From an uncultured virus (IMG/VR IMGVR_UViG_2860837431_000002) (taxonomy: Duplodnaviria; Heunggongvirae; Uroviricota; Caudoviricetes), in the IMG/VR virus record IMGVR_UViG_2860837431_000002, positions 1-64,000 of that record: a DNA stretch of 64,000 nt, one strand, 5' to 3'. Positions 1,532 through 63,025 of this stretch are shown piece after piece. Numbering within the stretch: position 1 is the first letter of the stretch; every line of letters starts with the position of its first letter. The notes below the pieces were generated by a model. That model worked only from the letters and a program-made list of their open reading frames with translations. It did not search any database and was not told the DNA's origin. The position numbers were made by a program, and so were the translations under genes.

Positions 1532-1924
1532 ATCCCTTAACTTATCCACTAATTTTATTTTCACTCTAAATAAAAGACCGATTTTATTTAGTTGTTTGAC
1601 TCAACTCAATTGGCTCATAATTAGTCCATTCATGAAATATTTCCTTCTGATGTTGGCTTATCTTTATTGGTTTTACCCACTTTATCTTTGAAGATTTAAT
1701 CTTGCAGTCGCTGCTTACATCCTCTGAAAGTTCATGTTTATCTCTTTTCATTGAAATAACCCTCCCCAAATTACTCCTGCAGCTATAGCAGCTATAAAGA
1801 CAGAAACAAATTTCATTATTATGAAGAATTTGATATGCTTTGTTTCATCCTCAGTTAAGTTCAAATCTGATAAAGCGAATAAGCCAAACATTATCAACAA
1901 AATCCAAGCTGTTACAATCATCTA

Positions 1925-2470
1925 CTAAGAACCTCTTTCGACTGTGTAACCACCGGTAATGTCATTTAAGATCGTGCTGCTTGGGGACAGCTTTTCACTC
2001 TTACTATCATTATTTTTAGTGTAATTAATGAAATCATCGAACTGGATCAAATACACTCCGTAAGCTGTGTTATTCAATTTATCGATGGTATCGTCACTTG
2101 GTTTGGAAAACCAGCTTTTAGTACCTTGGCCATACACTTCAAAAATTTGAACAATCTCGTTCTTATACTCAAAATAAGCCAGCTTATTTTCAAATTCACA
2201 TTCCTCATCAACTGGGTTTCCTACATGATTTGTCGCATATTCCATCATTGAAGTAAGCATATAGCCTAATTCTACGTCCGAGAAACTAAGTTGAGGTTTA
2301 GGTGTTCCATAATAAATATCAGCCTCATTTAGTGATCCTCTTTGATTAACTTCTTTAATGATTTCTTCGATAGCTGTGTAGCCTTCATGAATGATGAAAT
2401 CTCTTCGTATCTCGTCCCCTCGTTTATATTCCTCTAGGAAACTTGTTATGTTAAACTCTGCATTCTTCAT
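1925..2470 (-). CDS. Hypothetical phage protein
   Basis: 181-aa ORF with AGGAGG RBS, coupled to the upstream ORF. Confidence 0.7.
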   Translation of the reverse strand: MKNAEFNITSFLEEYKRGDEIRRDFIIHEGYTAIEEIIKEVNQRGSLNEADIYYGTPKPQLSFSDVELGYMLTSMMEYATNHVGNPVDEECEFENKLAYFEYKNEIVQIFEVYGQGTKSWFSKPSDDTIDKLNNTAYGVYLIQFDDFINYTKNNDSKSEKLSPSSTILNDITGGYTVERGS

Positions 2471-2873
2471 TTAACTCCTCCTTACTTAGGTCGATGTATT
2501 GTTGAAGACTATTCACAAACGAAATTATGCAGCTTCTTATTTCCTCTGGATCTGCAAAGTCCATTTCGCTTTTTAAGAAATACTCATCAAGTTCCAACAT
2601 TGCAAGAAAACGGTCATCTTTTGGCAAGTTATTAAAGTTAATACTCTTTAATTTAGGAATTCCTTTATTTATAAACCATTCAACAAAAAGGTTATCCTTG
2701 CTTTGTCTTTTAGCCTGGGACAAAAAATCATAAATATCTTTAGAATTCTTTATATTGAAGTATATGTGCAGGCTCTCTTTCATAAGGTCAAACACTCGCA
2801 GTAAACAACAACTAATTTTAGACTCTGAATCAGTTCTATAATATAAATCAAACCATGTTAATTTGTAATGCAC
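2451..2873 (-). CDS. Hypothetical phage protein (possible paralog of neighbour)
   Basis: 140-aa ORF, GGAGG RBS. Confidence 0.65.
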   Translation of the reverse strand: MHYKLTWFDLYYRTDSESKISCCLLRVFDLMKESLHIYFNIKNSKDIYDFLSQAKRQSKDNLFVEWFINKGIPKLKSINFNNLPKDDRFLAMLELDEYFLKSEMDFADPEEIRSCIISFVNSLQQYIDLSKEELNEECRV

Positions 2874-3270
2874 TTAATCCCTCCTTGTACAAATCGATTA
2901 TTTCTGGCACTCGTTGAAAGAAAGTAATTATGCAACCTCTAGCGTCAAAGGGGTATTCGCAATCAATTTCAGCACTGGATATGTAGATTTCATATTTTAT
3001 GCTGGATATTAGTTGCGGATTATAAGGTAGCTCGAACTGTAAGCACCTCTTCAGAATAGGTAAATGCTCATTGACATACTTTAAGAACTTCTTCTCATAG
3101 CCAGGAACCTGTTCATATAGTTTGTTTACGAGCTCTTCAATTGTATCTGTTTGTACTTTGTAGAGGTTCTCGAACAGTGTTTTGTTGATGTCCATGAGCT
3201 CACTCAAAGCTTTTACGGTTTTCTGATTTCCAGTCATAGTAACTCCCCACCACTCAAAGCATTTATCCAT
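2848..3270 (-). CDS. Hypothetical phage protein
   Basis: 140-aa ORF, AAGGA RBS. Confidence 0.65.
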   Translation of the reverse strand: MDKCFEWWGVTMTGNQKTVKALSELMDINKTLFENLYKVQTDTIEELVNKLYEQVPGYEKKFLKYVNEHLPILKRCLQFELPYNPQLISSIKYEIYISSAEIDCEYPFDARGCIITFFQRVPEIIDLYKEGLSALQINMV

Positions 3271-3554
3271 TGCTGGTTATCCTTCTTAGTCGTTCAACTT
3301 CAGTGATATAAAACTCAGCTTTATAAACTTTCGTCATGCTCTCCTCCTAATTTTTAATCAACTTCATCTGGAAGGACAGGGAATCCATAATCTAGACAAT
3401 AACTGTCAAAGTCTGTTTCCTTTTCATCGCCGCATTTCGCACATTCTTCAATCACAACTGACGAATTATAACAACAAACTTCATATTCGTGCTGGCACTC
3501 CATTTCTCCACCGCCATTCAAGTTCTTTCTATACTAATAAAATCAACATTTTAT

Positions 3555-3746
3555 CTACTTCCAATTGTAGTTCTCCTTTTCTTTCTCTGAATCACCTATA
3601 TGCGAAAGAATCCAATTATGATAACCCTCTTCTCCACAATTAGGGCAATCCATTTCAGATATAACCTTTAATGTGTTTATCATAGGATTTTTAGCAAACA
3701 AGTGATGATTGCATTTTCTACAAAAAAACACAACTTCATTTTCCAT
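3555..3746 (-). CDS. Small Zn-ribbon protein (YotC-like)
   Basis: CxxC...CxxC, 63 aa, RBS; bounded by palindromic sites 3537 and 3766. Confidence 0.65.
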   Translation of the reverse strand: MENEVVFFCRKCNHHLFAKNPMINTLKVISEMDCPNCGEEGYHNWILSHIGDSEKEKENYNWK

Positions 3747-3779
3747 GTCTCCCCTTCCCTTCTGTATAAAATTAGAACT

Positions 3780-4361
3780 TTATTCAGTAATATGGAAGTC
3801 AAAATCCAAATCACTAATGTCAACCTGCTTTTCTTCATCATTAGGTAGCTTTATTTTCACTTCCGTATCAATTCCACAAGATGTATGTATAATTTTTTCA
3901 AGTATCTCCACTTTTTCATTGTTCAACTTTGCTCTATTAAAGTTCAAAATTTGTGCGTTAAACTCTATTTTATACGAGTCCCCGATATCTTCATTAATAT
4001 CACAAATGCTTATATTCAGCTCCTTCTCTTGAGTCAGACTCAACAGGTACTCCCTAACTTTTGTTGCAAACTCCAAGTTAAACCAATGAAAACTCTCTTC
4101 ACACTTTCTACCCAGCTGTATAGAAAAGGCTGCGGGCTCATTATCCAGAAAATAGACTCTGTACCCTACATAGGAATCGGTACAATACCAGTTTCCAACC
4201 CAATAACACTTTAGCCTGTCCTGCTCAACATATGGTACATTATCGAGACCTAATTCGCGCCCAATATCCTGCGTGTCGACCTCACTTTCATTTTGTTTTG
4301 ATTTATCAATTTTATTAACAATATCAATTAGCTTCATTTTGCAATACCCTTTCTTTTCCAT
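3780..4361 (-). CDS. Hypothetical phage protein
   Basis: Long ORF; stop codon lies inside site 3766-3783. Confidence 0.65.
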   Translation of the reverse strand: MEKKGYCKMKLIDIVNKIDKSKQNESEVDTQDIGRELGLDNVPYVEQDRLKCYWVGNWYCTDSYVGYRVYFLDNEPAAFSIQLGRKCEESFHWFNLEFATKVREYLLSLTQEKELNISICDINEDIGDSYKIEFNAQILNFNRAKLNNEKVEILEKIIHTSCGIDTEVKIKLPNDEEKQVDISDLDFDFHITE

Positions 4362-4725: not shown

Positions 4726-5052
4726 TCTTTATGGGAGTGGCTTCTGCTACTCCCTAACACCTTTCTCTTTAAAATACAGATTTTATATTAATTTAAACGT
4801 AATAACTAATTTTTTTATCCATCACTTTTCGGATAATTCGTTCCTGTTGCAATGACTTTCGACATTAGTAGGGTTCCGTAATTCATAATTCATAAGAGCT
4901 CCCCCTCGCATGCGTATTTTCGATAACATCCTTTGCAGTAAACGTATTTGGGAACTTCGATTTTCGGAAACCTCTCTTTACATCCACAGTAAGGGCACTC
5001 GACAACCTCAGTTTCGCGCAAATATAACCCGAGGTTATTCCACTTGTTTACG

Positions 5053-6147: not shown

Positions 6148-6253
6148 TGAATCACCTCCTTAAAGTTTGAATAAAATATTAGTTTTATCAAAATGCATAT
6201 TTTTTGTTTTTGTATTTTAAATAAAAAACTATTATCACATAACCTTCTTATTC

Positions 6254-10105: not shown

Positions 10106-10157
10106 TATGTATTAGCTCCTTTTAATTTAAGTTTGTTTAAAATTACCCTTTTATTGA

Positions 10158-17723: not shown

Positions 17724-17971
17724 TCGATTGCTCCTTATTTAAACTTCTTCCAAGTGAAACAATAAAGCATCCTCATAAAAGTCCACTTGAATCTCATTTC
17801 CAGTATCTTCTCCAGTAATTGTGCACCTAAAAGGAGTATCCCCATAAAAATCAAGTTGCTCCTGTAATACCTTGATAACTTCACTGATTTTTGGATTAAT
17901 TAATTTGCCTTCATTTGCGATATACACCTTATTGTTACTCCTCTCCTTAACTCTTTAAAATCATCCTTTTA

Positions 17972-18289
17972 TTAAAAACTTATAAACTTGACCTTTGGGA
18001 CATAAACTTCAAACTCTAATTTCGAAAATGTATTTGTGCTTAGGTCTTTAACAAATACAACATCGATGGATTTTTCTTCTTTGTTAGTTGCTATTCTTAA
18101 TACATATCTATGATTCTTTTTTAAAAGTGGGCAATTCCCTAACCCTAATATTTGCTTAGTTTCAAGAAAGATGCTTTCTCCTTCTTCAGTCAACTTTGCA
18201 TCTTTAATATCAAAAACAACTTTTTCTTCATCTGGCAAATAGTCATTTTCTTGTAAGTAAGATAATCTAATATTTTTAATCTTCATCAT
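17972..18289 (-). CDS. Hypothetical protein (single-gene cassette)
   Basis: Bounded by sites 17955 and 18313. Confidence 0.6.
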   Translation of the reverse strand: MMKIKNIRLSYLQENDYLPDEEKVVFDIKDAKLTEEGESIFLETKQILGLGNCPLLKKNHRYVLRIATNKEEKSIDVVFVKDLSTNTFSKLEFEVYVPKVKFISF

Positions 18290-18338
18290 TTAAGTTTCTC
18301 TCCTTTTTGTCTATAAAATAAAACTTTTATTTAGATCT

Positions 18339-19094: not shown

Positions 19095-19530
19095 TATCTT
19101 CCCTCATTGATGATTTTCTTTAATGCTTTTAGAAGCATATTTAGTGATTTCTTGTCACCCATTTCATCCCGATTGACTTCAATAAAGTGAACTGCTGACG
19201 TTAATTTATCCTGCATTTCAGTTGCTCCTTTCACGATAAAAATTGAATTTTATTTAGATTACTTCATAATGCGTTTGTGATATTCCATAATCATTTCCTT
19301 TGCAAAAAACCGTTCCAGTTTCTCGTGCAACCACCTCTTTAACTACCCATTCGCTTCCAACGGGATAGATAATGTGCCCCCAATAACCTTGCACTTCCTT
19401 TGTGACTCTAATTTTGTCTCCTTTTTTGGCACTCATATTGATTCTCTTCCACCCCATTATTTGTTTTGATTTGTCGTATACTGCGCTTGCCCGGGAAATT
19501 ATGAATATTTCTTTGAGATTTATTTCCCTT

Positions 19531-19986: not shown

Positions 19987-20321
19987 TTTGGTATAAGCAC
20001 CTCCCTGTTCGACAGACGCCATAAGAATTTTTTATGGCGTTTTTAATTTTGAAAACAAATCACGATAAAAGGAATATTTTATCCTCTTATTTTTCATTTG
20101 TTATTTAATCCTAAATGTTCTAATGTCTTCTTAACACTTAAATTGCTGCATTCATTTTTCACTTTATCGGAATAACCCTTTGCACAACCTTCACAACAAT
20201 TGAAGTCTACATAAGTTTTTTCATCGCTGATCCTAAGACAAATTGTTTTTCCGCTTATGTACTCTTTACAGATGTCACATATGTGATTCATTAACACTCT
20301 CCTTTGTCTTAATGTAAATTT

Positions 20322-21395: not shown

Positions 21396-21442
21396 TCAAT
21401 ACACTCCTCTTATTTTACATTTGTTTAAAAGACAAATTTTAT

Positions 21443-22153: not shown

Positions 22154-22409
22154 AAGATCAATTTTATTCAGAATAAAAATAAAATATATGGAGTGATTTA
22201 GTGAGAGTACTAAGTTTATTTGACGGAATGAGTTGCGGACAAATTGCGCTAAATAAAATTGGCATTACTAATTATGAATATTATGCTAGTGAAATCGAAA
22301 AATCGAGCATCACTGTAACACAAAGGAACTATCCTTCCACAGTTCAACTAGGCAATATTTTAGAATTAGATGAAAGTAAACTAAAAAGATTAAATAAAAT
22401 TGATCTTTT
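22152..22409. repeat. Perfect 17-bp inverted repeats flanking an inverted segment
   Basis: AAAAGATCAATTTTATT (22152-22168) and AATAAAATTGATCTTTT (22393-22409). Confidence 0.95.
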
Positions 22410-22467
22410 ATATAGTTCCAAAGCATATTTTACAGATATTTCTACTCATTTACATTTTTATCCTTAA
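22201..22467 (+). pseudogene. C5 cytosine DNA methyltransferase, 5' part (motifs I-III), on the opposite strand
   Basis: GGAG RBS, GTG start; VLSLFDG (motif I), ASEIE and LGNI; homology ends at NKIDLL inside the right repeat. Confidence 0.9.
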
Positions 22468-40570: not shown

Positions 40571-40668
40571 TTAACAACTCTCCTTATATAATTTTATATT
40601 TATTCCCTATTTTCATCTTATAAGCAGTCACATTAGTACCACCCCCTTATCCGAATAAAAAATTACTT

Positions 40669-41046: not shown

Positions 41047-41103
41047 TTAAACATCTCCCTATCTGGTTAAAATATCGTTTTTATTGAATGTTTAATTTTA
41101 TTT

Positions 41104-43656: not shown

Positions 43657-44046
43657 ACTCTCCGTTACATAACTCCTTAGCACCAAGTAATTAAAAAGCT
43701 AATGAAAATTTAGTACATTGGTCATTTAGTGTTTTCTAACGGAATTATATTCACTTCTCTCTGTACTAGGTGTTTTTGATGGCAGCTTGGACATGAAACA
43801 GTTGTTTCAATCGAAGGTGGATAGAAAATCACTTCATTACAGCTTCTGCAAGTAAAACAATCCTTTTTTATTACCATAACTAGATCACCCACTTCCTTTA
43901 AAATAAATATTTTATTTTGATTGTAATGTGATTTTTTTAAAATCCTTTTTAGTTTCCCATATTTCATTTCACTTTTTAATAATGAAAGGCATTTCATAAG
44001 TATGCCTTTCAAGAGATTGTACATTTTGTCTCGGAGGTGAAATGTA

Positions 44047-44196: not shown

Positions 44197-44276
44197 ATCA
44201 TCCTTCTATGATCGTTATCGATACGTGTGTTTTTTCCGATAACGATCCATCCTCATGTTTAGTTAAAAACTATCTT

Positions 44277-44627
44277 TTATTCAATCTCTATATTCAACCC
44301 AGTTGCTCCCACTTTAATTTCCTTCATCTCTCCAATCTGTGGCATATATAAATGTTTCTTTTCATTCACCGAAACAATTTCACCCTTCCAACAACCGTTT
44401 TGCACAAAGAATTTTGTCCCAATTGGTAAAGTTCGAAGATCTGCGTTCTCTATGTATTCTCCTTCCTCTCTATACACCTCTCCTTGTTCAGCAACCCTCC
44501 TTTTAGAAACTTTAATATCGATTTTGTATAGTGAATTTTCATCTTCAAGCATTAATTTATGTAACCAATCAGTTACTTTTGATTGCCCATCAATAACGTT
44601 AACCGTATCGAAAATCTTTCTGTACAT
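44277..44627 (-). CDS. Hypothetical phage protein
   Basis: 116 aa; stop codon inside site 44263-44280. Confidence 0.6.
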   Translation of the reverse strand: MYRKIFDTVNVIDGQSKVTDWLHKLMLEDENSLYKIDIKVSKRRVAEQGEVYREEGEYIENADLRTLPIGTKFFVQNGCWKGEIVSVNEKKHLYMPQIGEMKEIKVGATGLNIEIE

Positions 44628-45286: not shown

Positions 45287-46152
45287 TAATTTAACTCCTT
45301 CACCTAGACTAATGCTTTTTCTTTCTGTCTTTCGATCAACTTTCGAGAAAATTTTTGAGTTCTTATTTTGCGTTTCTCCTCAAGTATCTCTCTATCGTTG
45401 GCTTCTAACATCTTCTTCAGACTCAGATTTTTTCTAATAAGCTCTTTCATTCTGTCCAATTTCTCATCCCCCTTTAAGCAAGATATTTCTTTCTATGCGG
45501 TCTTTTATGTATGAAATCAAATGCTAAATCAACTTTCTCCGGTTCCCTTTCCTCTGGTACTCGGTGCATAACAACAATTAGTTGACCATTTTCTTGGCGA
45601 TCAATATCCTGAACTGAATATCCTTTAGCAGCGTAATATTCTCCGATAATCTCATCAACGTGGTTGCTAAGCAGATTCCTCTTTATCATTTCTGTAACCT
45701 CCACTTATTTTATTTTTACTCTTTAAACATTTATATGTATTCCATCCGCAGCCATCAAATACGCTTATGTCCGCTCCTAGGTGCCATTTAAACCAAACTA
45801 TGTTAAAGCAAGCTGTTTCAATTATATATTTAATGTAGCCTATCCTCTTGTCCTCCGTTCTGAATAAAATAATCCTTTTATTGTGATTCTGTAGCCTTAA
45901 TTAAAAATCCCATTCTTTCCTTCTTTGTTTTAGTTAAATCTCTGCTTTCTTTTAAGATGTCCTGAAACAAGTGAAATGGAATTGGGTTTAAACCAAGGCT
46001 TCTGACTTTATTACAATAGCCTCCGTAATAGGCTTGCTCGTATTCTCTCTGCTCTGATCTAAAATTAAATGGATTCATTGGCTGTCTCCCTTCCTCTAAA
46101 TATCTTAATATCATTCTTTCAAACTAAAATGATTTTTTTATTTTGTTTTTCA

Positions 46153-47460: not shown

Positions 47461-47503
47461 AGTTCAGCTCCTTTCTCTTTAAAACAGTCTTTTTATTTTA
47501 ATT

Positions 47504-48163: not shown

Positions 48164-48194
48164 TTAAAACTTCAATTTTAATTAGATTCTGTTT

Positions 48195-49191: not shown

Positions 49192-49318
49192 ATTACAGAA
49201 TAGCAACAACTTATCAGGTCATCGAGAGGACTCTTGGTGACCTTCTATAATGTTTTATTCACCCATTTCCCTTTTCCACTCTCTATAAAATTTTACTTTT
49301 ATCTAAAAGTTTTCAAAT

Positions 49319-50074: not shown

Positions 50075-50579
50075 TAAAGTTCCTCCATTTAATTTGTTTA
50101 AAATGCATCTTTTATTTAGACTATGATCTCAATACTTCTCAGCAAGGTTACCAACCTTCTTCATAGAAAATATCATCATATAAAACATTTGATTCATCGG
50201 TCATTTCTCTCTCTTCTTGGTATTCATCCATATGATTAGTAATAAACTCACTCGCTTCTCTAATTGTATTACCGGTGAATCTTGCACTTATATATTGCTC
50301 CATGCGTCCGATCAGTCTCAACTGTTTTTCTGTTGCTCTAATCACTCCACGCCCTCCTTCTGACAGTCAGGGCATAGAGTTGCAAAACCGTTCCCCTTCT
50401 CCGTTAATATCTCCTTGAATGTGTAATCATAGTGCAAAGCGCCATTCATATGACCTTCCCACGATAACGGATTCCCTATGTTTAAAACCTTTTCCTTACC
50501 GCACTTATCGCAAATAACAACCGTTTTGTATATAGTCTTGACCACTTCTTTATGAAATGCCATCACTCCGCGCCCTCCT

Positions 50580-51712: not shown

Positions 51713-51795
51713 ATATCCCCCTTATCTGAATCTCGATAAAACTTACATTTTATCCACTAATTTTATTTTTGTTACCTTAGTGAAAATTACACAAT

Positions 51796-53182: not shown

Positions 53183-54160
53183 TTAAATGGTCGTCTCTTT
53201 TAGACCTAGTTCTTCTGCGTAATATTTATTAACTTCTTCCTCATTAATATAATCTTGCATTGAATAAACTGCTCGATATTTGGATTTCACTCTTAAATTA
53301 AAGTCATCTATAATCTGATACCTTACAGAGTTATCAATAACCCCTTTTTCTTTATAAAGCTGATATGCTCTATACAAATGACCAGATCTAACAATAGTAT
53401 TTGGTGTTAAAAAGTTAATTTTAAAGAACTCAGATATATCAGTAATTAGATTAGTTATGACAAATTTACTTGCTTGGCCGTCTCCTTTGTTGGATGTTCT
53501 TTTTGTTTTAACTACATAATCATTTTCAACTAAAAAGACTTCTTTTGTTTGGCCTTTTGCCTTCCCATTCTTTAATTTATATTTAGTTTCCTGAGCTGCA
53601 TTTAAGGCAATAACAAGACATTCACTACTAACTTTTAGTTTTCGTTCACCGTGCTTTGAATCATAGAGGGTTAAAACGTTACCATTTAGCATCGCATCCT
53701 CAACTTGCTTTTTCGTTAAACTTAGCAATTCAGAATGAGCTAAACCTGAAACCCCTTCAAACAACAGCCTTAATACAGCCTTTGATTGATAATTAACTAA
53801 TTGACTTTCCATTTCTTCTAATTCACTATAGGTAATATATAATTTTTTATCCCCAAGACACTCATAAAGCTCTTCTTCTGAAATAGTTCTTGCTAAATTG
53901 GTTAATCCTTTACTTAACTTATATGAAATTGCCCAATCAATATACAATGACAATAATGCTAAGGTTCTCCGAACACTACCGATAGTGGTTTGATCAAATG
54001 ATCGTATAAGTTCTAAAATTTGCATTGATGTGAAATCATAAATGTCCTTATTATATAAAGTCTCAGTAATCTCTGCTTTAGCAAAAATAGGCCTCATCTG
54101 CAAAACCATACCCTCAGATAAGGTATCTAAATATTTTTCCTTAATCTCACTATTGAACAT
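53183..54160 (-). CDS. yopR: Master repressor MrpR/SroF (degenerate tyrosine-recombinase fold)
   Basis: 325 aa, last gene of the yopM-R operon; catalytic Arg/HxxR not evident. Confidence 0.85.
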   Translation of the reverse strand: MFNSEIKEKYLDTLSEGMVLQMRPIFAKAEITETLYNKDIYDFTSMQILELIRSFDQTTIGSVRRTLALLSLYIDWAISYKLSKGLTNLARTISEEELYECLGDKKLYITYSELEEMESQLVNYQSKAVLRLLFEGVSGLAHSELLSLTKKQVEDAMLNGNVLTLYDSKHGERKLKVSSECLVIALNAAQETKYKLKNGKAKGQTKEVFLVENDYVVKTKRTSNKGDGQASKFVITNLITDISEFFKINFLTPNTIVRSGHLYRAYQLYKEKGVIDNSVRYQIIDDFNLRVKSKYRAVYSMQDYINEEEVNKYYAEELGLKETTI

Positions 54161-54183: not shown

Positions 54184-55566
54184 TTACTCGTCTATTTTTA
54201 AATTATTGAAGAAATTCCATATCTTTTGTGGTGATTTAGCATTTCCATTCTTGTCTACTACACCTAATTCATCCCACAACTTATTTTTCTTACTAAAGTC
54301 TATAGAGCCTAAAACATCAGTAATCTTACTTTCCAACTCGTCCAGGCTTACCCCATCTAATTGCAATTTCTTAGCTAATCCCACATAACCATTAAAGAAC
54401 AAATAGTTGTTTACAAAACTTCTCTTCCGTTCTTTTGCTATATCACCTAAGAACTCATCTACATATTGTGTAGCTAAAGCATCAAAGAAAGATGTAAGGT
54501 ATCTTGCAGTTTTTAAGATGTCTGCCTGAGTAGAAAAATCTTTTTTAGAATAGCTTCTTTCAATTGCCTTTTTGAAGTCAGAAAAAGTTATAAGTAAGTT
54601 TTGATTCTGATTTATCCAGTCTCCATTTGTCTTTATATAATCACCAATTATGCTATTATCCTGAATAAACTTAACAATTTTATTTGAATAAACATTTTGA
54701 CTCATCTCAGCTACTTTAGATTTCTTCACTGGATTTATTGTATTTTGTTGCCCAAAATGCTCTCTCGCCCTTTTTTGAGTGTAGTTATAGATGTCCACTT
54801 TAAAGGTTTCTTCAAACAAATGATCTAACTCAGGATGCTGTCTTATAGCCATAGTAATGCCTATTAGCCGGTGATACCCGTCTAAAACGTCTAAAATGGT
54901 GTCTTCAGTCACTGTAAGCGACATAGTGTCGTCATCATATTTTAATTCTTCGCCACAACTTGCGCTTCCAACACGTGCATTAAACGTAAAAACTGATTTA
55001 ATTAATTTCCCATCTAAGAACAGTTCCTTTATTTCTTCAACCGATTGTTTATTGAGCTGCGGTACAGGTATCTCAATATCTGAGCCCTCTAGTTTTTTCG
55101 TTTTGTTCGTTCTTTGAGCATTAGGATTATAGTGCAATAACTTATTTTCAAATAGCATAAACAACTCTTTAGCAGTGATGGGGAAGAAATAATTATCATC
55201 CGAATACTTTACAACTTGTTTGAATGTATACGGAAATTTTATATCTTCCTCCACAGATCCTTCCCATAACGTTTCAATTTCTCTCATATCCGTTTCTGTG
55301 AAGTAATTTCGTGGATTAAACCTTTCACTTTCAAGAACTGAGTATAGGGACTTGGCTAAAAAGTACATATATTCTTTAGAAATTTCGACTTCTGGATTTT
55401 CTATATCATAAATTAATTTTTGTGTTGTCCCTGGAGTAATTTTATTTTTAGCCATCTCTAATTGAATATCGTTAATAAAAGATCTTATGTGTTTATTTTT
55501 CGAGATAGCATCTTTCATTTCTGAAAGCAGTTTCTCATTTGCAGACTGATCAAAGATCACTGTCAT
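54184..55566 (-). CDS. yopQ: YopQ/SroE, DndB/ParB-like (DGxHR) protein
   Basis: VLDGYHR motif; 460 aa. Confidence 0.8.
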   Translation of the reverse strand: MTVIFDQSANEKLLSEMKDAISKNKHIRSFINDIQLEMAKNKITPGTTQKLIYDIENPEVEISKEYMYFLAKSLYSVLESERFNPRNYFTETDMREIETLWEGSVEEDIKFPYTFKQVVKYSDDNYFFPITAKELFMLFENKLLHYNPNAQRTNKTKKLEGSDIEIPVPQLNKQSVEEIKELFLDGKLIKSVFTFNARVGSASCGEELKYDDDTMSLTVTEDTILDVLDGYHRLIGITMAIRQHPELDHLFEETFKVDIYNYTQKRAREHFGQQNTINPVKKSKVAEMSQNVYSNKIVKFIQDNSIIGDYIKTNGDWINQNQNLLITFSDFKKAIERSYSKKDFSTQADILKTARYLTSFFDALATQYVDEFLGDIAKERKRSFVNNYLFFNGYVGLAKKLQLDGVSLDELESKITDVLGSIDFSKKNKLWDELGVVDKNGNAKSPQKIWNFFNNLKIDE

Positions 55567-55672
55567 ATAGCCTTTCACCTCATGTCATGTTGCTAAATTT
55601 AAAGTTACCAAAGGCAATCTGGTTAATCAAGAAGAATTATCATTTGAACTGAGTAATATACCGAAAAAATGA

Positions 55673-56749
55673 TTATCGCTCATTTACATGCTTTATAAAC
55701 TTTTTTAATGTAACAAGATCAGCGTTTTCAAAAAAACTAATAAAATCCTCTTGGGTTGCTTCATATAGTGGATTTAAATCGATTTTTTCATCCATTGTTA
55801 CACCAGCAGAGTTCTCTATGTTAATCTTTCTGCTCATATATCTCTCTGTTGTTAATGTGTTTTTATGATTTCCTTGTTCTTTTGCTGCAAGTAAATCGTG
55901 ACCAGAATTCTCATAGACATAGTCAATTCCTACACCCTTAAATGAGTGTAAGACTAATTCTCTTTCAGGAGGTATTCCTAATCTTTTTTTCGACCTTTTT
56001 AAGGAGTGTCGTAAAGATTGTTCCGAAAGCCCCTGAAAAACCAATTCAGTTTCGATGTCATCCTCTTCCTTCAGCTGCAACAATTCCTCATAAAATACCT
56101 GGTTAATGCCTGTAGACACAACCTGAGATCCTTTATCAATAACTGTTACTATATAATGGCCTGTACTTTCATCAAGCTGTATGTCTTTCCATCTTACTCG
56201 CAAAATCGCACTTACACGAAAAGAAGTTCTGATGGCGAATTTAACAAACAGCTTTTTCATTAAAGGTTTCTGTCTTTCATTTATATACATATCCTGAGCG
56301 ATTCTTTCGGCTTCTGTCTGGGTTGTTTTATCCCAGTTTTTAGTTACTGTTTTAAGCCTTTCGACAGTATTAAACACCGACAAGTCAATATAGTCCTTAT
56401 AATCATGCTCCAAATATGTATAGAGCATCTTCAGGGAGGTCATTTTTCTGTTAATACTATTATTAACTAATCCCTTTTCCTGAAGATACTTCACATAGTT
56501 GCTTAATTCGCTTTTACTTACAACTAAATCATCGGGAACTAAACTTTTGACATCTTTACCTTTAATCACACTAAAGAACTGCTTAATATCCCCTTCATAA
56601 TTCTTTCTGGTGTTCGACACCCTTCTAGTTGATGAAGGCATCATATAGTTAGAATTCCCTGAGCTACTTCTTATATCTTTATTGATTAAAAAGCCCTCGA
56701 TATCATCGTAAACCGCATAATTTTTTAATTGTTTAACTTTATTTTGCAT
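55673..56749 (-). CDS. yopP: YopP/SroD tyrosine-recombinase-family protein
   Basis: SAM-like N-domain; SFRVSAI, DKG, LHSFK, GNH and TERY motifs; 358 aa. Confidence 0.85.
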   Translation of the reverse strand: MQNKVKQLKNYAVYDDIEGFLINKDIRSSSGNSNYMMPSSTRRVSNTRKNYEGDIKQFFSVIKGKDVKSLVPDDLVVSKSELSNYVKYLQEKGLVNNSINRKMTSLKMLYTYLEHDYKDYIDLSVFNTVERLKTVTKNWDKTTQTEAERIAQDMYINERQKPLMKKLFVKFAIRTSFRVSAILRVRWKDIQLDESTGHYIVTVIDKGSQVVSTGINQVFYEELLQLKEEDDIETELVFQGLSEQSLRHSLKRSKKRLGIPPERELVLHSFKGVGIDYVYENSGHDLLAAKEQGNHKNTLTTERYMSRKINIENSAGVTMDEKIDLNPLYEATQEDFISFFENADLVTLKKFIKHVNER

Positions 56750-59145: not shown

Positions 59146-59286
59146 TATTTCCCCTCATTTCTTTTTGTTGTCTTTATTGGTTAACTTAATAATACTATAG
59201 ATCACATTACGAGTCAATTATTTTATACATATTTTTTGTATTTGTATTCTCTTTAAAATTCCTATTTTATATAAACACAATGAGGG

Positions 59287-60381: not shown

Positions 60382-60415
60382 TTGTTCCCTCGCTTAATTC
60401 CATAAAAGGATTCTT

Positions 60416-60748
60416 TTATCTCAATGGATCTCCTGAAGCTATATGCCAATGCAGATGCTTTGAGTCCTGATAATCTCCTAAGTTTGTAAGCACCCTGCAA
60501 GATCCACTTTCTTTTGTCACCTTCGCTGCAACCTTTTTAATCACACCCATCAACTCGAGTAAAAGTTCGTTGTCGTCTTCTTCCAAAGTGATTAAAGAAG
60601 AGATATGTTTTTTAGGAATAGCAACAATATGCACCGGCCAAAAAGGTCTTGTATGATGATACGCCAATACATTATCGGTTTCTAAAACTTTATTTACTTT
60701 TGTTTTTCCGCTTAATACTTCATCGCAATAAAAGTCTTCTGTCATCAT
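60416..60748 (-). CDS. HIT-family nucleotide hydrolase
   Basis: HIVAIPKKH and HLHWH histidine triad; GGGGG RBS. Confidence 0.88.
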   Translation of the reverse strand: MMTEDFYCDEVLSGKTKVNKVLETDNVLAYHHTRPFWPVHIVAIPKKHISSLITLEEDDNELLLELMGVIKKVAAKVTKESGSCRVLTNLGDYQDSKHLHWHIASGDPLR

Positions 60749-61019
60749 TAATCCCCCCTTACTTTTTAGCTTTGGATCATCATAATCAATATACAGATTA
60801 ACCCAATGCTCTGCTTTATATTTCACCTTTATCATTAAAATAAGAGAACCACAATAAACTAATGAACCCAGCAGCTCCTATAATTGTAGATATAATGTAA
60901 GTCCAATTAAGTAAATCCATAAGCTTACTCCTTTAAGAAATAATGTCTAAATAAAATGATTATTTTATTACTATTATACTACAATTTTCCATAGATACAC
61001 TAAACAAAAAGCAGTCTAT

Positions 61020-61489: not shown

Positions 61490-61705
61490 CTAACGTTTTA
61501 CGACTTGTATTTCCCTTACCTCACATTGCACATTACACTTCGTTTTGAGCTCACTTGCTACCTCAATGACTTCTAACATATTATGCATTTTAGAAGCACC
61601 GTGGAGGTCGCTAGATGTCAAATAACCGCTCTCATCTAACTTAAATGATTTGAAGTATTCATTGTTTTCAAACTGCAATACATAAAAATAATCAATCAAA
61701 GGCAT
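61490..61705 (-). CDS. YopF-like protein
   Basis: 71 aa, synteny. Confidence 0.6.
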   Translation of the reverse strand: MPLIDYFYVLQFENNEYFKSFKLDESGYLTSSDLHGASKMHNMLEVIEVASELKTKCNVQCEVREIQVVKR

Positions 61706-61708
61706 AAA

Positions 61709-61960
61709 TCAACCTCTTTTAAATAATTTTGTAATCCTCATTGCCAATGGCAGTAAACCAATTAGCATAAAAAAAGCAATCACATTAAGCTTATTTTTGA
61801 AAAACAGGCTGGCCAAATTCCTTTCCATGCCCGCTGCTGTTTCTTTATCCATGAGTTCTTTAAACTCTTCATCATAGACCTGATCAACAAAAATAAACTT
61901 AATGTCGGTCAATAATCCAACTCCAAGCCAGATAATTAAAAAATAAGCTAATCCAATCAT
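61709..61960 (-). CDS. YopE-like membrane protein
   Basis: 83 aa, two TM segments. Confidence 0.6.
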   Translation of the reverse strand: MIGLAYFLIIWLGVGLLTDIKFIFVDQVYDEEFKELMDKETAAGMERNLASLFFKNKLNVIAFFMLIGLLPLAMRITKLFKRG

Positions 61961-62030
61961 TTGTTCCCTCCCTATATCGAACGAAATTTGCTATTCTTGA
62001 GTATGTTGAATAAATTATGTGGGTGATCTT

Positions 62031-62210
62031 GTGGAAGAGAAGTTTGAAACAAACGGGTATGATACTTCAATCGTTTATGATTACAAAGAATATCCAGATG
62101 TAAAATACGGACGCTGCGACAACTGTGATTACACACTGTTCAAAAGCTCTGTGAAGAGTGGAATATTCTTGCGTGAATGCCGGCGTTGCGGTATGAAAAA
62201 GAGCATATAG
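62031..62210 (+). CDS. Small Zn-ribbon protein
   Basis: CDNC...CRRC; downstream hairpin AAAAAGAGCA...TGCTCTTTTT. Confidence 0.6.
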   Translation: MEEKFETNGYDTSIVYDYKEYPDVKYGRCDNCDYTLFKSSVKSGIFLRECRRCGMKKSI

Positions 62211-62247
62211 ATTAATGCTCTTTTTTGTAATATTGAACCCTTAATCA

Positions 62248-62883
62248 CTAGTTATGATGGTATTCTTTAATTCCATCAGAAGATATCACAACAGAATAAG
62301 CTGTTTTACCAATCATTTCATCGTCTGCCCGCTTTATTGCTTTAAAATTAAGTCGTGCAAAGTTTCTCGGATTTTTATAATAGTGATCTCGCTTTAACAC
62401 TTCTGCAGATATAAACCTTATAGCTTCTTTCTCTGCATCTCCGTTGCTGTTTGAGTTCAATTTTACACTTAATTCTTCAATTTCTAGACCACTATAATCA
62501 TCATCTGATGAAAAACCAAATAATTTTGGTTCGTGTTGTCGCATGAACCCGACATAAAATACAGATACTGGTTTGATTCCAGGATAGACCGCTTCGAAAT
62601 GTGCTTTCCCGTATTTAAATGAGTCTCTAAAAATACCAAGTGGGTCAATGCTATGCAGATTTAAAACATCAACATTTTGATTTAGCAATTCAAATGCCTT
62701 TTCTGCTATTAGAGTGGATCCAGCAAACGAAACAATGTACTTATTGTCTATTATTTTTATCTTAATATAGTCATCTGATTTAATTTTTAACAATTCACCA
62801 GAGCAGCTGTCTGTTTCTGTCTGTCTTTTATCAGCAGTCATTATTATGTTATTGCTCCATTTTACTGCTACAATCATCGTCAT
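62248..62883 (-). CDS. Putative Ntn-hydrolase (proteasome beta/HslV-like) fold protein
   Basis: M-T-hydrophobic strand, ADKRQT, K33-like IKI, FAGS. Confidence 0.55.
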   Translation of the reverse strand: MTMIVAVKWSNNIIMTADKRQTETDSCSGELLKIKSDDYIKIKIIDNKYIVSFAGSTLIAEKAFELLNQNVDVLNLHSIDPLGIFRDSFKYGKAHFEAVYPGIKPVSVFYVGFMRQHEPKLFGFSSDDDYSGLEIEELSVKLNSNSNGDAEKEAIRFISAEVLKRDHYYKNPRNFARLNFKAIKRADDEMIGKTAYSVVISSDGIKEYHHN

Positions 62884-63025
62884 TTATAAATTCAAATCTC
62901 CCTAATATTAAAAATAAGAATTACTGATACACCCTTACTCTTGGAATCTGAATAAAAGTACGATTTTATGCAGACCTAGAAAACTTGTAATTCCTTCCTA
63001 TGCTTGTAACTTTAGTATACCATTT

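What the first reader, a model, noticed from the sequence alone, without database searches (positions are those of the whole stretch)
1570..62969. Integron-like cassette architecture: ~31 palindromic WTAAAA-N6-TTTTAW sites punctuate the accessory genes
Seen: 26 exact and 5 one-mismatch copies of an 18-bp dyad (6-bp arms, 6-bp spacer). Nearly all lie between the stop codon of one gene and the RBS of the next. In six cases the TAA of the arm is itself the stop codon, in identical register (1584, 3780, 40669, 44277, 45878, 60416), and five more stops abut the site. Many units between two sites hold only one or two genes, including reverse-oriented morons. I found no copies in the replication block (~24.9-36.9 kb), inside nrdIEF or in the yopU-aimR block. 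A rough base-composition estimate gives about one chance copy per window, though A-tract bias would raise that. Established: inverted arms around a 6-8 bp overlap is tyrosine-recombinase site geometry, and integron cassettes likewise place stop codons in their att sites. Inference: a site-specific system captures and shuffles accessory gene cassettes in this phage family. I know of no description of it; it is distinct from the SPBRE operator.
Basis: partly seen in the sequence, partly recalled or inferred. Interest (0 to 1): 0.92.

Follow-up and report, generated by a model that had tools for sequence, protein, structure and literature searches.

The report
Address-labelled recombination joints between phage genes
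An SPbeta-like Bacillus phage carries about 38 copies of a short palindromic DNA site between its genes, each copy with its own 6-base "address", and related phages have repeatedly swapped neighbouring genes, including an anti-defence gene slot, exactly at these sites without changing gene order.

Summary
The window holds 29 exact WTAAAA-N6-TTTTAW sites, against 0.57 expected. The whole 131.6-kb phage holds 38, and only the 6-base spacing is enriched.

The site is not a hairpin: flank positions do not covary. It shows no sigma-A promoter or terminator features. It is not the SPBRE operator.

Across 11 Spbetavirus genomes, 382 sites carry only 69 spacers, in the same order in every genome. The same 18-mer, spacer included, is joined to many unrelated left and right flanks. 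Almost every flank family goes with one spacer. Crossovers map inside the central 16 bp. Spacers diverge less than flanks.

The same core is enriched in distant large siphophages of Paenibacillus, B. cereus, Psychrobacillus and Staphylococcus. It is at background in SPO1, SPP1, phi105, phage K, Sundance, Lactococcus phage 949 and a Paenibacillus chromosome.

So the sites are precise, slot-specific mosaic joints. This is allelic module exchange, not integron-like shuffling.

The catalyst is unknown. I favour (about 0.4) a phage tyrosine recombinase, YomM or YopP, acting on heterospecific sites. Nearly as likely is a conserved operator used by short-homology recombination. I found no prior description.

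The parts
1570..1587 (.). dyad site 1 (spacer GACCGA on + strand); its TAA is the stop of gene 1584-1751(-); lies between convergent genes
   Evidence: the same 18-mer sits with 3 left and 4 right flank families in 11 genomes
3537..3554 (.). dyad site 2; abuts the stop of gene 3555-3746(-)
4769..4786 (.). dyad site 3; between convergent genes
6171..6188 (.). dyad site 4; between an SPBRE-like promoter region and the RBS of the yosX-like gene 5791-6147(-)
10137..10154 (.). dyad site 5; upstream of the dUTPase-like gene 9677-10105(-); homology blocks to relatives end exactly at 10154
17955..17972 (.). dyad site 6
18313..18330 (.). dyad site 7
19236..19253 (.). dyad site 8; abuts the stop of gene 19254-19436(-)
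20065..20082 (.). dyad site 9; between convergent genes; its ortholog overlaps a stem_loop annotated in SPBc2 (116406-116431)
21425..21442 (.). dyad site 10; homology blocks to 9 relatives end exactly at 21442
22394..22411 (.). dyad site 11; inside a called + strand ORF (22201-22467)
25443..25460 (.). dyad site 12; inside the called yorM-like ORF, upstream of an internal RBS
32619..32636 (.). dyad site 13; inside the replicative helicase gene; both flanks conserved in most relatives, so it may be a chance or non-functional copy
36971..36988 (.). dyad site 14; after the yorD-like terminator region and upstream of the SPBRE/yorE promoter; spacer inverted in BUCT082, phi3T and BUCT083
40655..40672 (.). 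dyad site 15; its TAA is the stop of gene 40669-41046(-)
41067..41084 (.). dyad site 16; downstream boundary of the slot holding an HNH gene here (41104-41808), Gad1 in SPbetaL1 and Gad2 in SPbetaL6
43898..43915 (.). dyad site 17
44263..44280 (.). dyad site 18; its TAA is the stop of gene 44277-44627(-); a reverse-oriented small gene follows
45864..45881 (.). dyad site 19; its TAA is the stop of gene 45878-46078(-)
47479..47496 (.). dyad site 20
48164..48181 (.). dyad site 21
49285..49302 (.). dyad site 22; 3' boundary of the yoqD (Rha/ANT) module; the phi3T homology block spans exactly 49285-50115
50098..50115 (.). dyad site 23 (coding-strand spacer GATGCA); 5 left x 8 right flank families and 10 combinations in 11 genomes
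51736..51753 (.). dyad site 24
53407..53424 (.). dyad site 25; inside yopR/mrpR; flanks concordant wherever the relative has this module
59253..59270 (.). dyad site 26; directly after a terminator-like hairpin and upstream of the SPBRE/aimR promoter
60402..60419 (.). dyad site 27; its TAA is the stop of gene 60416-60835(-)
60951..60968 (.). dyad site 28
62952..62969 (.). dyad site 29; homology blocks begin exactly at 62952 (SPBc2) or end exactly at 62969 (phi3T)
55673..56749 (-). yopP/sroD, a tyrosine-recombinase family protein of unknown role; candidate enzyme or binder (inference only)
   Evidence: PF00589, E 8e-10. R, K, H-x-x-K, H and Y are kept; phi3T-type and Paenibacillus homologs have H-x-x-R. 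It is only 31-33% identical between SPbeta-type and phi3T-type phages, which share the same sites.
54184..55566 (-). yopQ/sroE, a DndB-family (ParB-like) protein; weaker candidate binder
   Evidence: PF14072, E 7e-16; found in 4 of 5 distant motif-bearing genomes and 0 of 2 motif-poor ones.
53183..54160 (-). yopR/mrpR, the master repressor that binds SPBRE; not the dyad binder according to the published motif

Best explanation
What it is. The 18-bp dyads have an invariant core TAAAA-N6-TTTTA. In Bacillus subtilis phages this extends to about 11-6-11 bp. They are protein-recognised module-boundary sites, and related phages exchange neighbouring genes at them.

How it works. Each genomic slot has its own 6-bp spacer. 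Exchange happens only between sites that carry the same spacer. A co-infecting phage or resident prophage can therefore swap the module on either side of a site. Gene order is kept and the genome avoids self-deletion. It works like cassette exchange between heterospecific lox or FRT sites.

The catalyst I think most likely is one of the phage's orphan tyrosine-recombinase-family proteins. These are YomM in the late operon (outside the window) and YopP/SroD in the window.

Shown:
- The sites exist and are specific to this phage lineage.
- They are not hairpins, sigma-A promoters or terminators.
- Crossovers lie inside the central 16 bp.
- Spacers are slot-specific, collinear and better conserved than flanks.

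Inferred:
- A protein binds the arms.
- The exchange is enzymatic and site-specific rather than short-homology annealing.
- Which enzyme does it.

The confidence of 0.4 is for the whole statement, enzyme included. That the sites are precise, address-specific recombination joints by some mechanism I hold at about 0.85.
For: Enrichment and spacing:
- 29 sites against 0.57 expected in the window.
- 38 in the whole genome at N6, against 0-2 at other spacings.
- 30-43 sites at N6, against 0-3 at other spacings, in 10 relatives.

Joints:
- 23 of 123 early-region breakpoint clusters lie within 15 bp of a site. Expected: 1.7 for random positions and 9.4 for random intergenic positions (maximum 20 in 500 draws).
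- Homology breaks at 66% of informative genome pairs at site junctions (95 of 143), against 34% at other gene junctions (216 of 634).
- Per junction the medians are 0.68 (n=18) against 0.20 (n=80), Mann-Whitney p=0.002.

Addresses:
- 382 sites carry 69 spacers.
- 64 of 74 left and 73 of 82 right flank families go with a single spacer. The exceptions are mostly 1-nt variants.
- A single spacer can have up to 9 left or 8 right families, and up to 10 combinations in 11 genomes.
- The order of addresses is collinear in all 11 genomes.
- No spacer is palindromic (0 of 69), and no spacer is duplicated within any of 16 genomes.

Precision:
- In pairs with the same spacer but discordant flanks, identity is at background within 0-5 nt of the 18-mer in 131 of 144 right-side and 111 of 143 left-side pairs.
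- Position 1 travels with the left flank (93% against 75%). Position 18 travels with the right flank (95% against 72%). The exchange point is therefore inside positions 2-17.
- That 16-18 bp core is shorter than the minimal efficient pairing segment quoted for RecA (31-34 bp) and Red-beta (23-27 bp) (De Paepe 2014, PMC3945230, passages read).

Spacer constraint:
- In 128 orthologous non-identical pairs, spacers are 97.4% identical against 89-93% for flanks.
- A phage only 78% identical in aligned DNA keeps 13 of 23 addresses (1.1 expected), several with both flanks unrelated.

A binder is implied:
- The identical core is enriched at N6 only in a Paenibacillus prophage (25), PBC2 (23), Perkons (17) and Staphylococcus SPbeta-like (15).
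- It is at background in Sundance, phage 949, SPO1, SPP1, phi105 and phage K. About 4 copies lie in roughly 7.7 Mb of Paenibacillus chromosome.

Candidate enzymes:
- YopP keeps R-K-HxxK/R-H-Y.
- By my reading of its sequence, YomM keeps R, K, HxxK, H and Y. It is 56-61% identical in Perkons and the Staphylococcus phage.
- Site 34 lies 26 nt after the yomM stop in Goe13 and 402 nt after it in this phage.
Against: - No recombinase activity, excised circle or hybrid site was seen.
- In SPbeta-type YopP and in YomM, the second catalytic arginine is lysine.
- YopP is only 31-33% identical between SPbeta-type and phi3T-type phages that use identical sites. MrpR at a similar distance has changed its operator.
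- In PBC2 and Perkons the inverted repeat next to the YomM-like gene has a different sequence. The Tyrovirus paper calls the PBC2-type repeat a putative attP (PMC9703825, passages read).
- Phyletic patterns are imperfect. YomM was not found in the 78%-identity phage that has 23 sites, yet it is present in phage 949, which lacks enrichment. YopP and YopR homologs are also present in motif-free Sundance.
- In 4 laboratory phi3T x SPbeta hybrid records, 8 of 19 parent switches lie in shared blocks of 1.4-18 kb. The other 11 are 3-68 nt patches away from dyads. None needs a dyad alone.
- About 80% of breakpoint clusters are not at dyads.
- The gad1/gad2/HNH slot has a dyad at only one of its two boundaries.
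- Other regulatory elements (SPBRE-like repeats, a LexA-box-like sequence, the yopS palindrome) also survive as identity islands. 129 of 191 unbiased islands are not dyads.
- The constant position, just after a stop codon and a few bases before the next Shine-Dalgarno sequence, also seen in distant phages, would equally fit a gene-expression role.
Confidence: 0.4

Rival explanations
1. The dyad is an operator for a conserved dimeric DNA-binding regulator or architectural protein. Candidates are YopQ/SroE, the HU-like YonN, a small HTH protein, or a host factor. It would insulate, block or time expression of early genes. Mosaic joints at the sites would be a by-product. The sites are the only identical patches between unrelated neighbouring genes, so phage annealing recombinases (Sak4/YorG) or rare illegitimate events, followed by selection, place viable crossovers there. 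This is what is proposed for PeSLs in T4-type phages.
For: - The half-sites vary independently and there is no hairpin signal, as expected for a double-stranded DNA dimer site.
- The position next to a stop codon and the Shine-Dalgarno sequence is constant across distant phages.
- Other regulatory repeats also persist as islands between discordant flanks (129 of 191 islands).
- All resolvable laboratory hybrid crossovers lie in ordinary homology.
- YopQ is a DndB/ParB-like protein. It is called a second repressor of unknown mechanism in the SroF preprint (passages read).
- YopQ's phyletic pattern is 4 of 5 motif-bearing against 0 of 2 motif-poor genomes.
- PeSLs show that regulatory repeats can drive module exchange (PMC2839356, passages read).
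Against: - The identity core of 16-18 bp is below the quoted minimal pairing lengths. Yet reassortment is very frequent relative to 2-10% sequence divergence.
- A regulator that reads only the arms does not explain why spacers diverge 3-4 times less than flanks, or why addresses survive at 78% genome identity.
- No sigma-A promoter or terminator features appear at the sites.
- Five window sites lie between convergent genes, with no main-strand gene start following them.
- No regulator is known to sit between every one to six cistrons of an operon (this last point is recalled, not tested).
Confidence: 0.35
2. The element acts in the polycistronic early mRNA. It would be a short AU hairpin or a protein-bound motif just 5' of the ribosome-binding site, controlling processing, stability or translation of the next cistron.
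For: - Sites lie within long co-oriented operons.
- In the subset where a downstream start could be assigned, the site end is 14-33 nt from the start codon in 127 of 152 unique oriented sites.
- In PBC2 and the Paenibacillus prophage the Shine-Dalgarno sequence follows within a few bases.
- There is a mild strand asymmetry: position 1 is A in 127 of 152 sites, while position 18 is T in 77 of 152.
Against: - A 6-bp A-U stem is not stable on its own (recalled thermodynamics; not folded here).
- The stem does not extend. Watson-Crick pairs at flank positions equal the chance expectation, for example 66 against 64.5 of 152 at -4/+4.
- Arm mismatches are not compensated.
- Reverse-complement symmetry is what a double-stranded DNA dimer reads, not a single-stranded RNA binder (established knowledge).
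- Five window sites sit between convergent genes.
- When the intergenic gap is long, the site stays by the upstream stop and not by the next start.
- An RNA role does not explain the recombination pattern.
Confidence: 0.08
3. An integron-like system. Folded attC-like sites would let a recombinase capture circular cassettes and shuffle their order.
For: - The sites punctuate accessory genes.
- Stop codons lie in the site.
- Tyrosine-recombinase genes are present.
Against: - No change of cassette order in 11 genomes.
- No cassette was seen at two different addresses. Flank families are faithful to one spacer.
- There is no hairpin covariation, and 6-bp arms are far shorter than attC.
- There is no attI/Pc-like platform. 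Sites are spread over the whole early region and also occur in the late region.
Confidence: 0.04
4. The motif is a promoter or initiation site for a phage-specific transcription system, such as YonO or a phage sigma-like factor.
For: - It is a conserved AT-rich element upstream of many genes.
- The YonO promoter sequence is unknown (PMC5467207, passages read).
Against: - YonO is reported to transcribe only the late operon, from one start site upstream of yonK. No dyad lies in the yonK-yonN gap of SPBc2; the nearest is at 57147, between yonH and yonI.
- tblastn found no YonO in the Paenibacillus prophage, which has 25 sites.
- There is no conserved element at promoter spacing.
- Sigma-70-like hits are at the shuffle level, 57 against 49.7.
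- Some sites lie between convergent genes.
Confidence: 0.04

Closest known systems
PeSLs (promoter-early stem-loops) of T4-type phages (Arbiol et al. 2010, PMC2839356; abstract and passages read)
   Same: - Short repeated intergenic elements concentrated among non-essential genes.
- Insertions, deletions and replacements between close relatives break at them.
- The authors themselves compare them with integrons.
   Different: - PeSLs are composite: a sigma-70 promoter plus a G/C stem-loop terminator. They have measured promoter and terminator activity.
- They recombine with neighbouring, non-allelic copies to give deletions and mini-circles.
- The dyads here are 18-28 bp and show no promoter or terminator features.
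- Each dyad carries a slot-specific spacer and shows only allelic, order-preserving exchange.
Heterospecific lox/FRT sites used for recombinase-mediated cassette exchange (recalled knowledge, no call)
   Same: - Invariant inverted arms around a short asymmetric spacer.
- Only sites with identical spacers exchange.
- Different spacers within one molecule prevent self-deletion, so exchange keeps order and orientation. This matches.
   Different: - Those are engineered sets of 2-3 sites with 13-bp arms and a known enzyme.
- Here there would be about 35 natural sites with 6-11 bp arms, and no enzyme has been shown.
Integron attC / cassette arrays (recalled knowledge)
   Same: - Sites lie between promoterless accessory genes.
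- A tyrosine recombinase is suspected.
   Different: - attC acts as a folded single strand of 57-141 nt.
- Integron cassettes change position and order, and are inserted at attI.
- None of this is seen here.
Xer/dif-type 28-bp core sites (11-6-11), and the putative 11-6-11 attP next to Tyrovirus gp50 (PMC9703825, passages read)
   Same: - Same 11-6-11 geometry.
- Tyrovirus gp50 is the homolog of YomM (32% identity to the PBC2 protein).
- In Goe13 a dyad lies 26 nt after the yomM stop.
   Different: - The arm sequences are unrelated. The PBC2 repeat is AAGATTAAGA-N6-TCTTAATCTT.
- dif and attP are single-copy sites, whereas this site occurs 30-43 times per genome.
SPBRE, the MrpR/SroF operator of SPbeta (PMC10516654 and bioRxiv 10.1101/2025.11.27.690993, passages read)
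   Same: - A repeated intergenic element of the same phages.
- It is bound by a protein with a tyrosine-recombinase fold.
   Different: - SPBRE is asymmetric, 24-26 bp, and bound by a monomer.
- It occurs at about 10 promoters.
- It differs between SPbeta and phi3T.
- The dyad is symmetric, occurs at 30-43 places, and is identical in both phage types.

Membership tests
Integron attC cassette array | The site folds as an imperfect single-stranded hairpin (paired R''/L''-L'/R' boxes) | tested here: not met
   Only the 6-bp A/T arms are complementary. Flank pairs are Watson-Crick at the chance level (109 vs 110.1, 66 vs 64.5, 82 vs 86.1, 31 vs 39.2 and 28 vs 35.8 of 152). Arm mismatches are uncompensated.
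Integron attC cassette array | Cassettes move between positions or change order | tested here: not met
   Address order is collinear in 11 of 11 genomes. 64 of 74 left and 73 of 82 right flank families are tied to one spacer.
Integron attC cassette array | IntI-type integrase with an adjacent attI and Pc promoter | not tested
   YopP and YomM match only general phage-integrase domains. I did not search for the IntI-specific insertion or for an attI platform.
Tyrosine-recombinase core site (lox/FRT/dif type) | Two inverted binding arms around a 6-8 bp spacer | tested here: met
   The arms are invariant and the spacing is exactly 6: 38 sites against 0-2 at other spacings. The extended consensus is TYTRR-ATAAAA-N6-TTTTAW-NSARA.
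Tyrosine-recombinase core site (lox/FRT/dif type) | Exchange occurs inside the site and needs identical spacers in the partners | tested here: inconclusive
   The pattern fits. Crossovers lie within positions 2-17, each flank family has one spacer, and spacers are conserved above flanks. Short-homology recombination would leave the same pattern.
Tyrosine-recombinase core site (lox/FRT/dif type) | A cognate active recombinase binds and cleaves the site | not testable with these tools
   Candidates are YopP (PF00589; R-K-HxxK-H-Y) and YomM. Neither binding nor cleavage has been shown. Arg II is Lys in both.
PeSL-type mobile regulatory cassette | Contains a consensus sigma-70-type promoter | tested here: not met
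   There is no conserved -35/-10 around the sites. Promoter-like hits number 57 against 49.7 in shuffles over 40-53 kb.
PeSL-type mobile regulatory cassette | Contains a stable stem-loop terminator | tested here: not met
   Terminator-like hits number 5 against 6.0 expected, and none is at a dyad. No stem extends beyond 6 A-T pairs.
PeSL-type mobile regulatory cassette | Gene gains, losses and replacements between relatives break at the element | tested here: met
SPBRE (MrpR/SroF operator) | Matches the 15-bp MEME motif / 24-26 bp asymmetric operator at about 10 promoters | tested here: not met
   This is a different architecture and copy number. SPBRE-like repeats appear as separate islands, for example 20318-20351 and 52010-52032. 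The published logo itself is a figure and could not be read.
ComK box (AAAA-N5-TTTT; recalled) | A 5-bp spacing between the A4 and T4 tracts | tested here: not met
   Spacing 5 gives 0 sites in this genome, against 38 at spacing 6.

The most novel reading that the evidence does not exclude
Large Bacillales siphophages run a natural recombinase-mediated cassette exchange system. Each genome holds about 20-40 heterospecific sites that share one arm sequence, and each site has a private 6-bp address. A conserved orphan tyrosine recombinase (YomM or YopP) acts on them. Co-infecting phages and prophages can then trade accessory modules, including anti-defence genes, slot by slot without scrambling the genome.
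Probability: 0.35. Interest if true: 0.92.

Novelty: new variant of a known kind. Interest (0 to 1): 0.8.

Why it matters
- Phage mosaicism is usually put down to rare illegitimate events followed by selection, or to homology inside genes. Here a defined 18-bp element marks the joints to single-base precision in a model phage family, SPbeta/phi3T, that is genetically tractable.
- The slot bounded by site 16 holds the Gabija inhibitors gad1 or gad2 in sister phages and an HNH gene in this one (bioRxiv 10.1101/2023.05.01.538930, passages read). The element therefore bears directly on how counter-defence genes are exchanged.
- If an enzyme is behind it, this would be a new class of multi-address recombination system. 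It would also be a ready-made toolbox of orthogonal sites.
- If not, it is the clearest case I know of the 'linker' sequences that the modular theory of phage evolution predicted (recalled).
- It also gives testable roles for the orphan recombinase-like genes yomM and yopP.

Tried and rejected
- **RNA evidence.** In read laying on 36500-56499, two raw-read RNA runs laid 0 reads. A Ribo-seq run laid 938 partly fitting reads in a few patches. One RNA run's contigs cover the stretch but cannot show RNA ends. Nothing can be said about transcript starts or ends at the sites.
- **YonO promoter idea.** Dropped.
- **Hairpin, terminator and sigma-A promoter readings.** Tested and not met.
- **Laboratory hybrids** (Hyb1-3 phi3Ts-SPbeta and the phi3T-SPBeta hybrid). 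Crossovers cannot be placed more finely than shared blocks of 1.4-18 kb, whose ends are often dyads. The hybrids neither show nor exclude exchange at dyads.
- **Phyletic profiling** of 198 proteins against 5 motif-bearing and 2 motif-poor distant phages. No protein fits perfectly.
- **Unbiased island search.** At 14 nt it was swamped by chance matches and was redone at 18 nt.
- **Relatives of the window's genome.** These cannot be drawn for a virus record.
- **Genome-contig scan** with the DNA polymerase. It returned only 2 loci.
- **Literature.** Searches found no description of this dyad. So did term searches (passages only, not whole texts) of the YonO paper, the Kohm review, the Kohm preprint, the MrpR paper, the SroF preprint, the anti-defence preprint and the Tyrovirus paper. 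Lazarevic et al. 1999, the original SPbeta genome paper, is not held and may mention such palindromes. Its GenBank features mark only one dyad, as a stem_loop, and the two features labelled 'palindrome' are other sequences. The supplements of the YonO paper hold no list of start sites.
- **The search of earlier findings.** Returned nothing.

Full report
**1. What the window is**

The window is the first 64 kb of a 131,607-bp phage genome. It is 90-95% identical, in mosaic blocks covering 28-63% of a 12-kb probe, to SPbeta (SPBc2), phi3T, Goe11-14, the BUCT082 and BUCT083 phages, SPbetaL1-8 and SPR. Most genes run on the minus strand. Gene coordinates below come from my own simple ORF, codon-usage and RBS caller (198 genes). 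They are not curated.

**2. The observation**

- One search finds 29 exact WTAAAA-N6-TTTTAW sites in the window. Shuffles expect 0.57 (largest 3 of 100).
- The whole genome has 38 at a spacing of 6. Spacings 3, 4, 5, 7, 8, 9 and 10 give 2, 1, 0, 1, 0, 1 and 0.
- Ten related genomes, fetched whole, have 30-43 sites each at spacing 6 and 0-3 at any other spacing.
- SPBc2 has 33, against 2 for the reversed control pattern.
The count is 29, not 26.
- The claim of no copies in the replication and yopU-aimR blocks is not quite right: 25443, 32619 and 53407 are exceptions.

**3. Anatomy**

- On the coding strand the consensus widens to TYTRR-ATAAAA-K....A-TTTTAW-NSARA (152 unique oriented sites).
- In this phage the site starts between -4 and +19 nt from the upstream gene's stop in most cases.
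- Where a downstream start could be assigned, the site ends 14-33 nt before it in 127 of 152 sites. That subset was chosen by having such a start.
- When the gap is long, the site stays next to the stop.
- Five window sites (1570, 4769, 20065, 44263, 49285) lie between convergent genes. The site is therefore not simply a leader of the next gene.

**4. What it is not**

- *Not a hairpin.* Beyond the six A-T pairs, the symmetric flank positions are complementary exactly as often as independent columns predict: 109 vs 110.1, 66 vs 64.5, 82 vs 86.1, 31 vs 39.2 and 28 vs 35.8 of 152. Orthologs with one arm mismatch are not compensated.
- *Not a sigma-A promoter or intrinsic terminator.* Promoter-like hits number 57 against 49.7, and terminator-like hits 5 against 6.0, over 40-53 kb. 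None of the strong hits is at a site.
- *Not SPBRE.* SPBRE is an asymmetric 24-26 bp operator read by monomeric MrpR/SroF at about ten promoters, and it differs between SPbeta and phi3T (passages read).
- *Not the YonO promoter.*
- *Not a ComK box.* Spacing 5 gives 0 sites.

Independent half-sites with strict spacing point to a dimeric protein on double-stranded DNA. This is an inference.

**5. The sites are mosaic joints**

- BLAST of the genome against 10 relatives gives 123 breakpoint clusters in the first 66 kb. Of these, 23 lie within 15 bp of a site centre. Random positions expect 1.7 and random intergenic positions 9.4 (maximum 20 in 500 draws). So about four in five breakpoints are elsewhere.
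- I tested 120-nt flanks on each side of all 38 sites against 10 relatives, giving 380 pairs. Of these, 86 keep both flanks together, 147 keep only one, 5 keep both but apart, and 142 keep neither.
- At early-region gene junctions with a site, 95 of 143 informative pairs show a break. At junctions without a site the figure is 216 of 634.
- Per junction the medians are 0.68 (n=18) and 0.20 (n=80), p=0.002.
- Many homology blocks end on the first or last base of an 18-mer: 10154, 21442, 50115, 62952 and 62969. Others end within one base of it: 36989, 40671 and 47497. The phi3T block 49285-50115 is exactly site 22 + yoqD + site 23.

**6. Addresses**

- Across the 11 genomes, 382 sites carry only 69 distinct spacers.
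- Written in this phage's numbering, the spacers occur in the same order in every genome once the records are rotated. Some are present or absent, but nothing is moved. Site 14 is inverted in three genomes.
- The same 18-mer, spacer included, sits between unrelated sequences. For spacer GATGCA there are 5 left and 8 right flank families in 10 combinations among 11 genomes.
- Conversely, 64 of 74 left and 73 of 82 right flank families seen at least twice always go with one spacer. Most exceptions are single-base variants.
- In pairs with the same spacer but a discordant flank (144 right, 143 left, 405 both, all unique), identity falls to the background of unrelated sites within 0-5 nt of the 18-mer. 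This holds in 131 of 144 right-side and 111 of 143 left-side pairs.
- The variable outermost bases segregate with their own side. Position 1 is shared in 93% of same-left/different-right pairs but 75% of the converse. Position 18 is shared in 95% against 72%. The exchange point is therefore inside positions 2-17.
- Of the 29 window sites, 28 have the same spacer in at least one relative. In 25 at least one relative is discordant on a flank, and in 21 on both flanks.

**7. Spacers are constrained, or homogenised**

- In 128 non-identical orthologous pairs with both flanks homologous, flanks are 89.4% and 92.9% identical. Spacers are 97.4% identical.
- An SPbeta-like genome found as a 133-kb contig in an assembly labelled Streptomyces is only 78% identical over the 57 kb that aligns. 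It has 23 sites. Thirteen carry addresses of the B. subtilis set (1.1 expected, none of 5000 simulations reached 13), in the same order. Several have both 60-nt flanks unrelated.
- No spacer is palindromic (0 of 69). No genome of 16 has the same spacer twice. Neither figure is significant alone.

**8. Range**

- A Paenibacillus prophage whose polymerase is 65% identical shares only 29 of 198 proteins with this phage. It has 25 sites in about 120 kb. A second low-GC region has 5, and the remaining roughly 7.7 Mb has 4. The reversed control pattern gives 20 genome-wide.
- There the flanks differ, but the 18-mer core and the position between stop and Shine-Dalgarno are the same.
- Other phages:

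| Phage | Host | Sites at N6 | Other spacings |
|---|---|---|---|
| PBC2 | B. cereus | 23 | 0-3 |
| Perkons | Psychrobacillus | 17 | 0-2 |
| SPbeta-like | Staphylococcus | 15 | 1-2 |
| 949 | Lactococcus | 2 | 0-2 |
| Sundance | Brevibacillus | 0 | 0-1 |

- SPO1, phi105 and SPP1 have 0. Phage K has 2, both copies of one sequence in its terminal repeat.
- The core is thus an old, lineage-specific feature of large Bacillales siphophages. It is not a property of AT-rich DNA or of the host chromosome.
- Addresses are not shared at that distance. PAE, PBC2 and Perkons are at chance. The Staphylococcus phage shares 3 against 0.7 expected (P = 0.03).

**9. Who acts on it?**

- These phages carry three proteins with a tyrosine-recombinase fold.
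  - YopR/MrpR is the SPBRE repressor.
  - YopP (window 55673-56749) matches PF00589. It keeps R, K, H-x-x-K, H and Y, with H-x-x-R in phi3T-type and Paenibacillus homologs.
  - YomM (genome 97486-98487, outside the window) is annotated 'site-specific integrase' in SPBc2.
- YomM identity to this phage's protein:
  - 98-100% in 7 of the 10 relatives and 64% in the other 3.
  - 61% in Perkons and 56% in the Staphylococcus phage.
  - 29-32% in PBC2, the Paenibacillus prophage and phage 949.
- Site 34 lies 26 nt after the yomM stop in Goe13 and 402 nt after it here.
- The Tyrovirus paper describes the PBC2-type homolog (gp50) in the structural module, with an 11-6-11 inverted repeat after its stop as a putative attP (passages read). 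I found that repeat and it is a different sequence. So is the one in Perkons.
- Points against each candidate:
  - YopP is 31-33% identical between phage types that share identical sites.
  - YomM was not found in the 78%-identity phage, and it is present in motif-poor phage 949.
  - YopP and YopR homologs exist in motif-free Sundance.
- YopQ/SroE is DndB/ParB-like. It has the best, though still imperfect, phyletic fit: 4 of 5 against 0 of 2.
- The binder is not identified.

**10. Mechanism**

Two readings fit the pattern.

(a) *Site-specific exchange between sites with matching spacers.*
- Explains the invariant arms and the exact spacing.
- Explains spacers that are arbitrary yet slot-faithful and conserved.
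- Explains the preserved order.
- Explains a crossover zone of 16 bp. That is below the minimal efficient pairing lengths quoted for RecA (31-34 bp) and Red-beta (23-27 bp).

(b) *A conserved operator that merely offers the only shared patch for short-homology recombination.*
- This is the mechanism proposed for PeSLs.
- Other regulatory repeats also appear as isolated identity islands: 129 of 191 islands of 18 nt or more are not dyads.
- In four laboratory hybrid records, all 19 parent switches lie either in 1.4-18 kb shared blocks (8) or in 3-68 nt patches away from dyads (11).
- Several of the shared blocks are themselves bounded by dyads, for example 104631 and 106011 in Hyb2. Exchange at the dyads is therefore not excluded.

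I put (a) at about 0.4 and (b) at about 0.35.

**11. An example that matters**

- The slot next to site 16 (41067-41084) holds an HNH endonuclease gene here. It holds Gad1 in SPbetaL1 and Gad2 in SPbetaL6.
- The published study noted that gad2 sits at the same locus as gad1 (passage read).
- The SPbetaL6 homology block ends at 41085 and resumes at 41817. One boundary is the dyad and the other is a plain stop/start junction.

**12. Verdict**

- The system is order-preserving and address-specific. It is not integron-like shuffling, and the enzyme is unproven.
- I found no description in the papers I could search or read (see Tried and rejected). The 1999 genome paper could not be checked.

Noticed in passing
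window 1542-1569, 51750-51770, 8629-8649, 16249-16271, 22170-22193, 41821-41840: A second repeated element lies just upstream of ribosome-binding sites of several genes. On the coding strand it reads roughly AAAAATAAAAT(T/A)AGTGGA(G), or TAAGAATAAAAATAAAATAAG. It is sometimes directly beside a dyad, as at sites 1 and 24. It survives as an identity island between discordant flanks.
   Followed up: no
Staphylococcus phage K record NC_005880.2, 8376-8393 and 148207-148224: The only two dyad matches in phage K are one sequence, ATAAAATCCCTCTTTTAT, near the inner edge of each long terminal repeat copy. It is letter for letter the 18-mer of this phage's site 34, the one downstream of yomM. It may be chance, or a shared SD-like GAGGGA spacer.
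   Followed up: no
window 36971-36988 (site 14) and genome 128281-128298 (site 38): In BUCT082, phi3T and BUCT083 the spacer of site 14 is present in reverse complement relative to the homologous flank. In SPR and BUCT083 site 38 carries TACCCA where the others have TGGGAA. That is its reverse complement with one change. Flipped addresses are unexplained.
   Followed up: partly
genome 97486-98487 (outside the window); SPBc2 yomM 40301-41302: A tyrosine-recombinase-like gene sits inside the late structural operon. It is one of the best-conserved proteins between this phage, Psychrobacillus phage Perkons (61%) and a Staphylococcus SPbeta-like phage (56%). Its role is unknown. The Tyrovirus paper notes the same odd placement for gp50.
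   Followed up: partly
window 54184-55566 (yopQ/sroE): The 'second repressor' SroE matches the DndB family (PF14072, E 7e-16). This is a ParB-like fold linked to DNA-sulfur modification systems. In the passages I read, the papers on SPbeta lysogeny control do not mention this.
   Followed up: no
window 53028-53045: The palindrome GTAAACCATATGGTTTAC lies between yopS and yopR and is annotated 'palindrome' in SPBc2. It persists in 7 relatives whose 50-nt flanks are under 50% identical. It is probably the operator of another regulator.
   Followed up: no
G001 (assembly labelled Streptomyces sp.), contig C23, 133,358 bp: A complete-looking SPbeta-like phage genome at 36% GC sits in a Streptomyces assembly. 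It is most likely a contaminant or a co-cultured Bacillus phage rather than a Streptomyces prophage.
   Followed up: no
window 36876-36917 and around 59220-59250; RNA-run contigs: Contigs of an RNA run that holds this phage branch at the SPBRE-like repeats. They also reveal a second, related SPbeta-like sequence in the same sample. Relative to the window it skips 42758-45473 and 45723-52010. Those joints are not at dyads.
   Followed up: no
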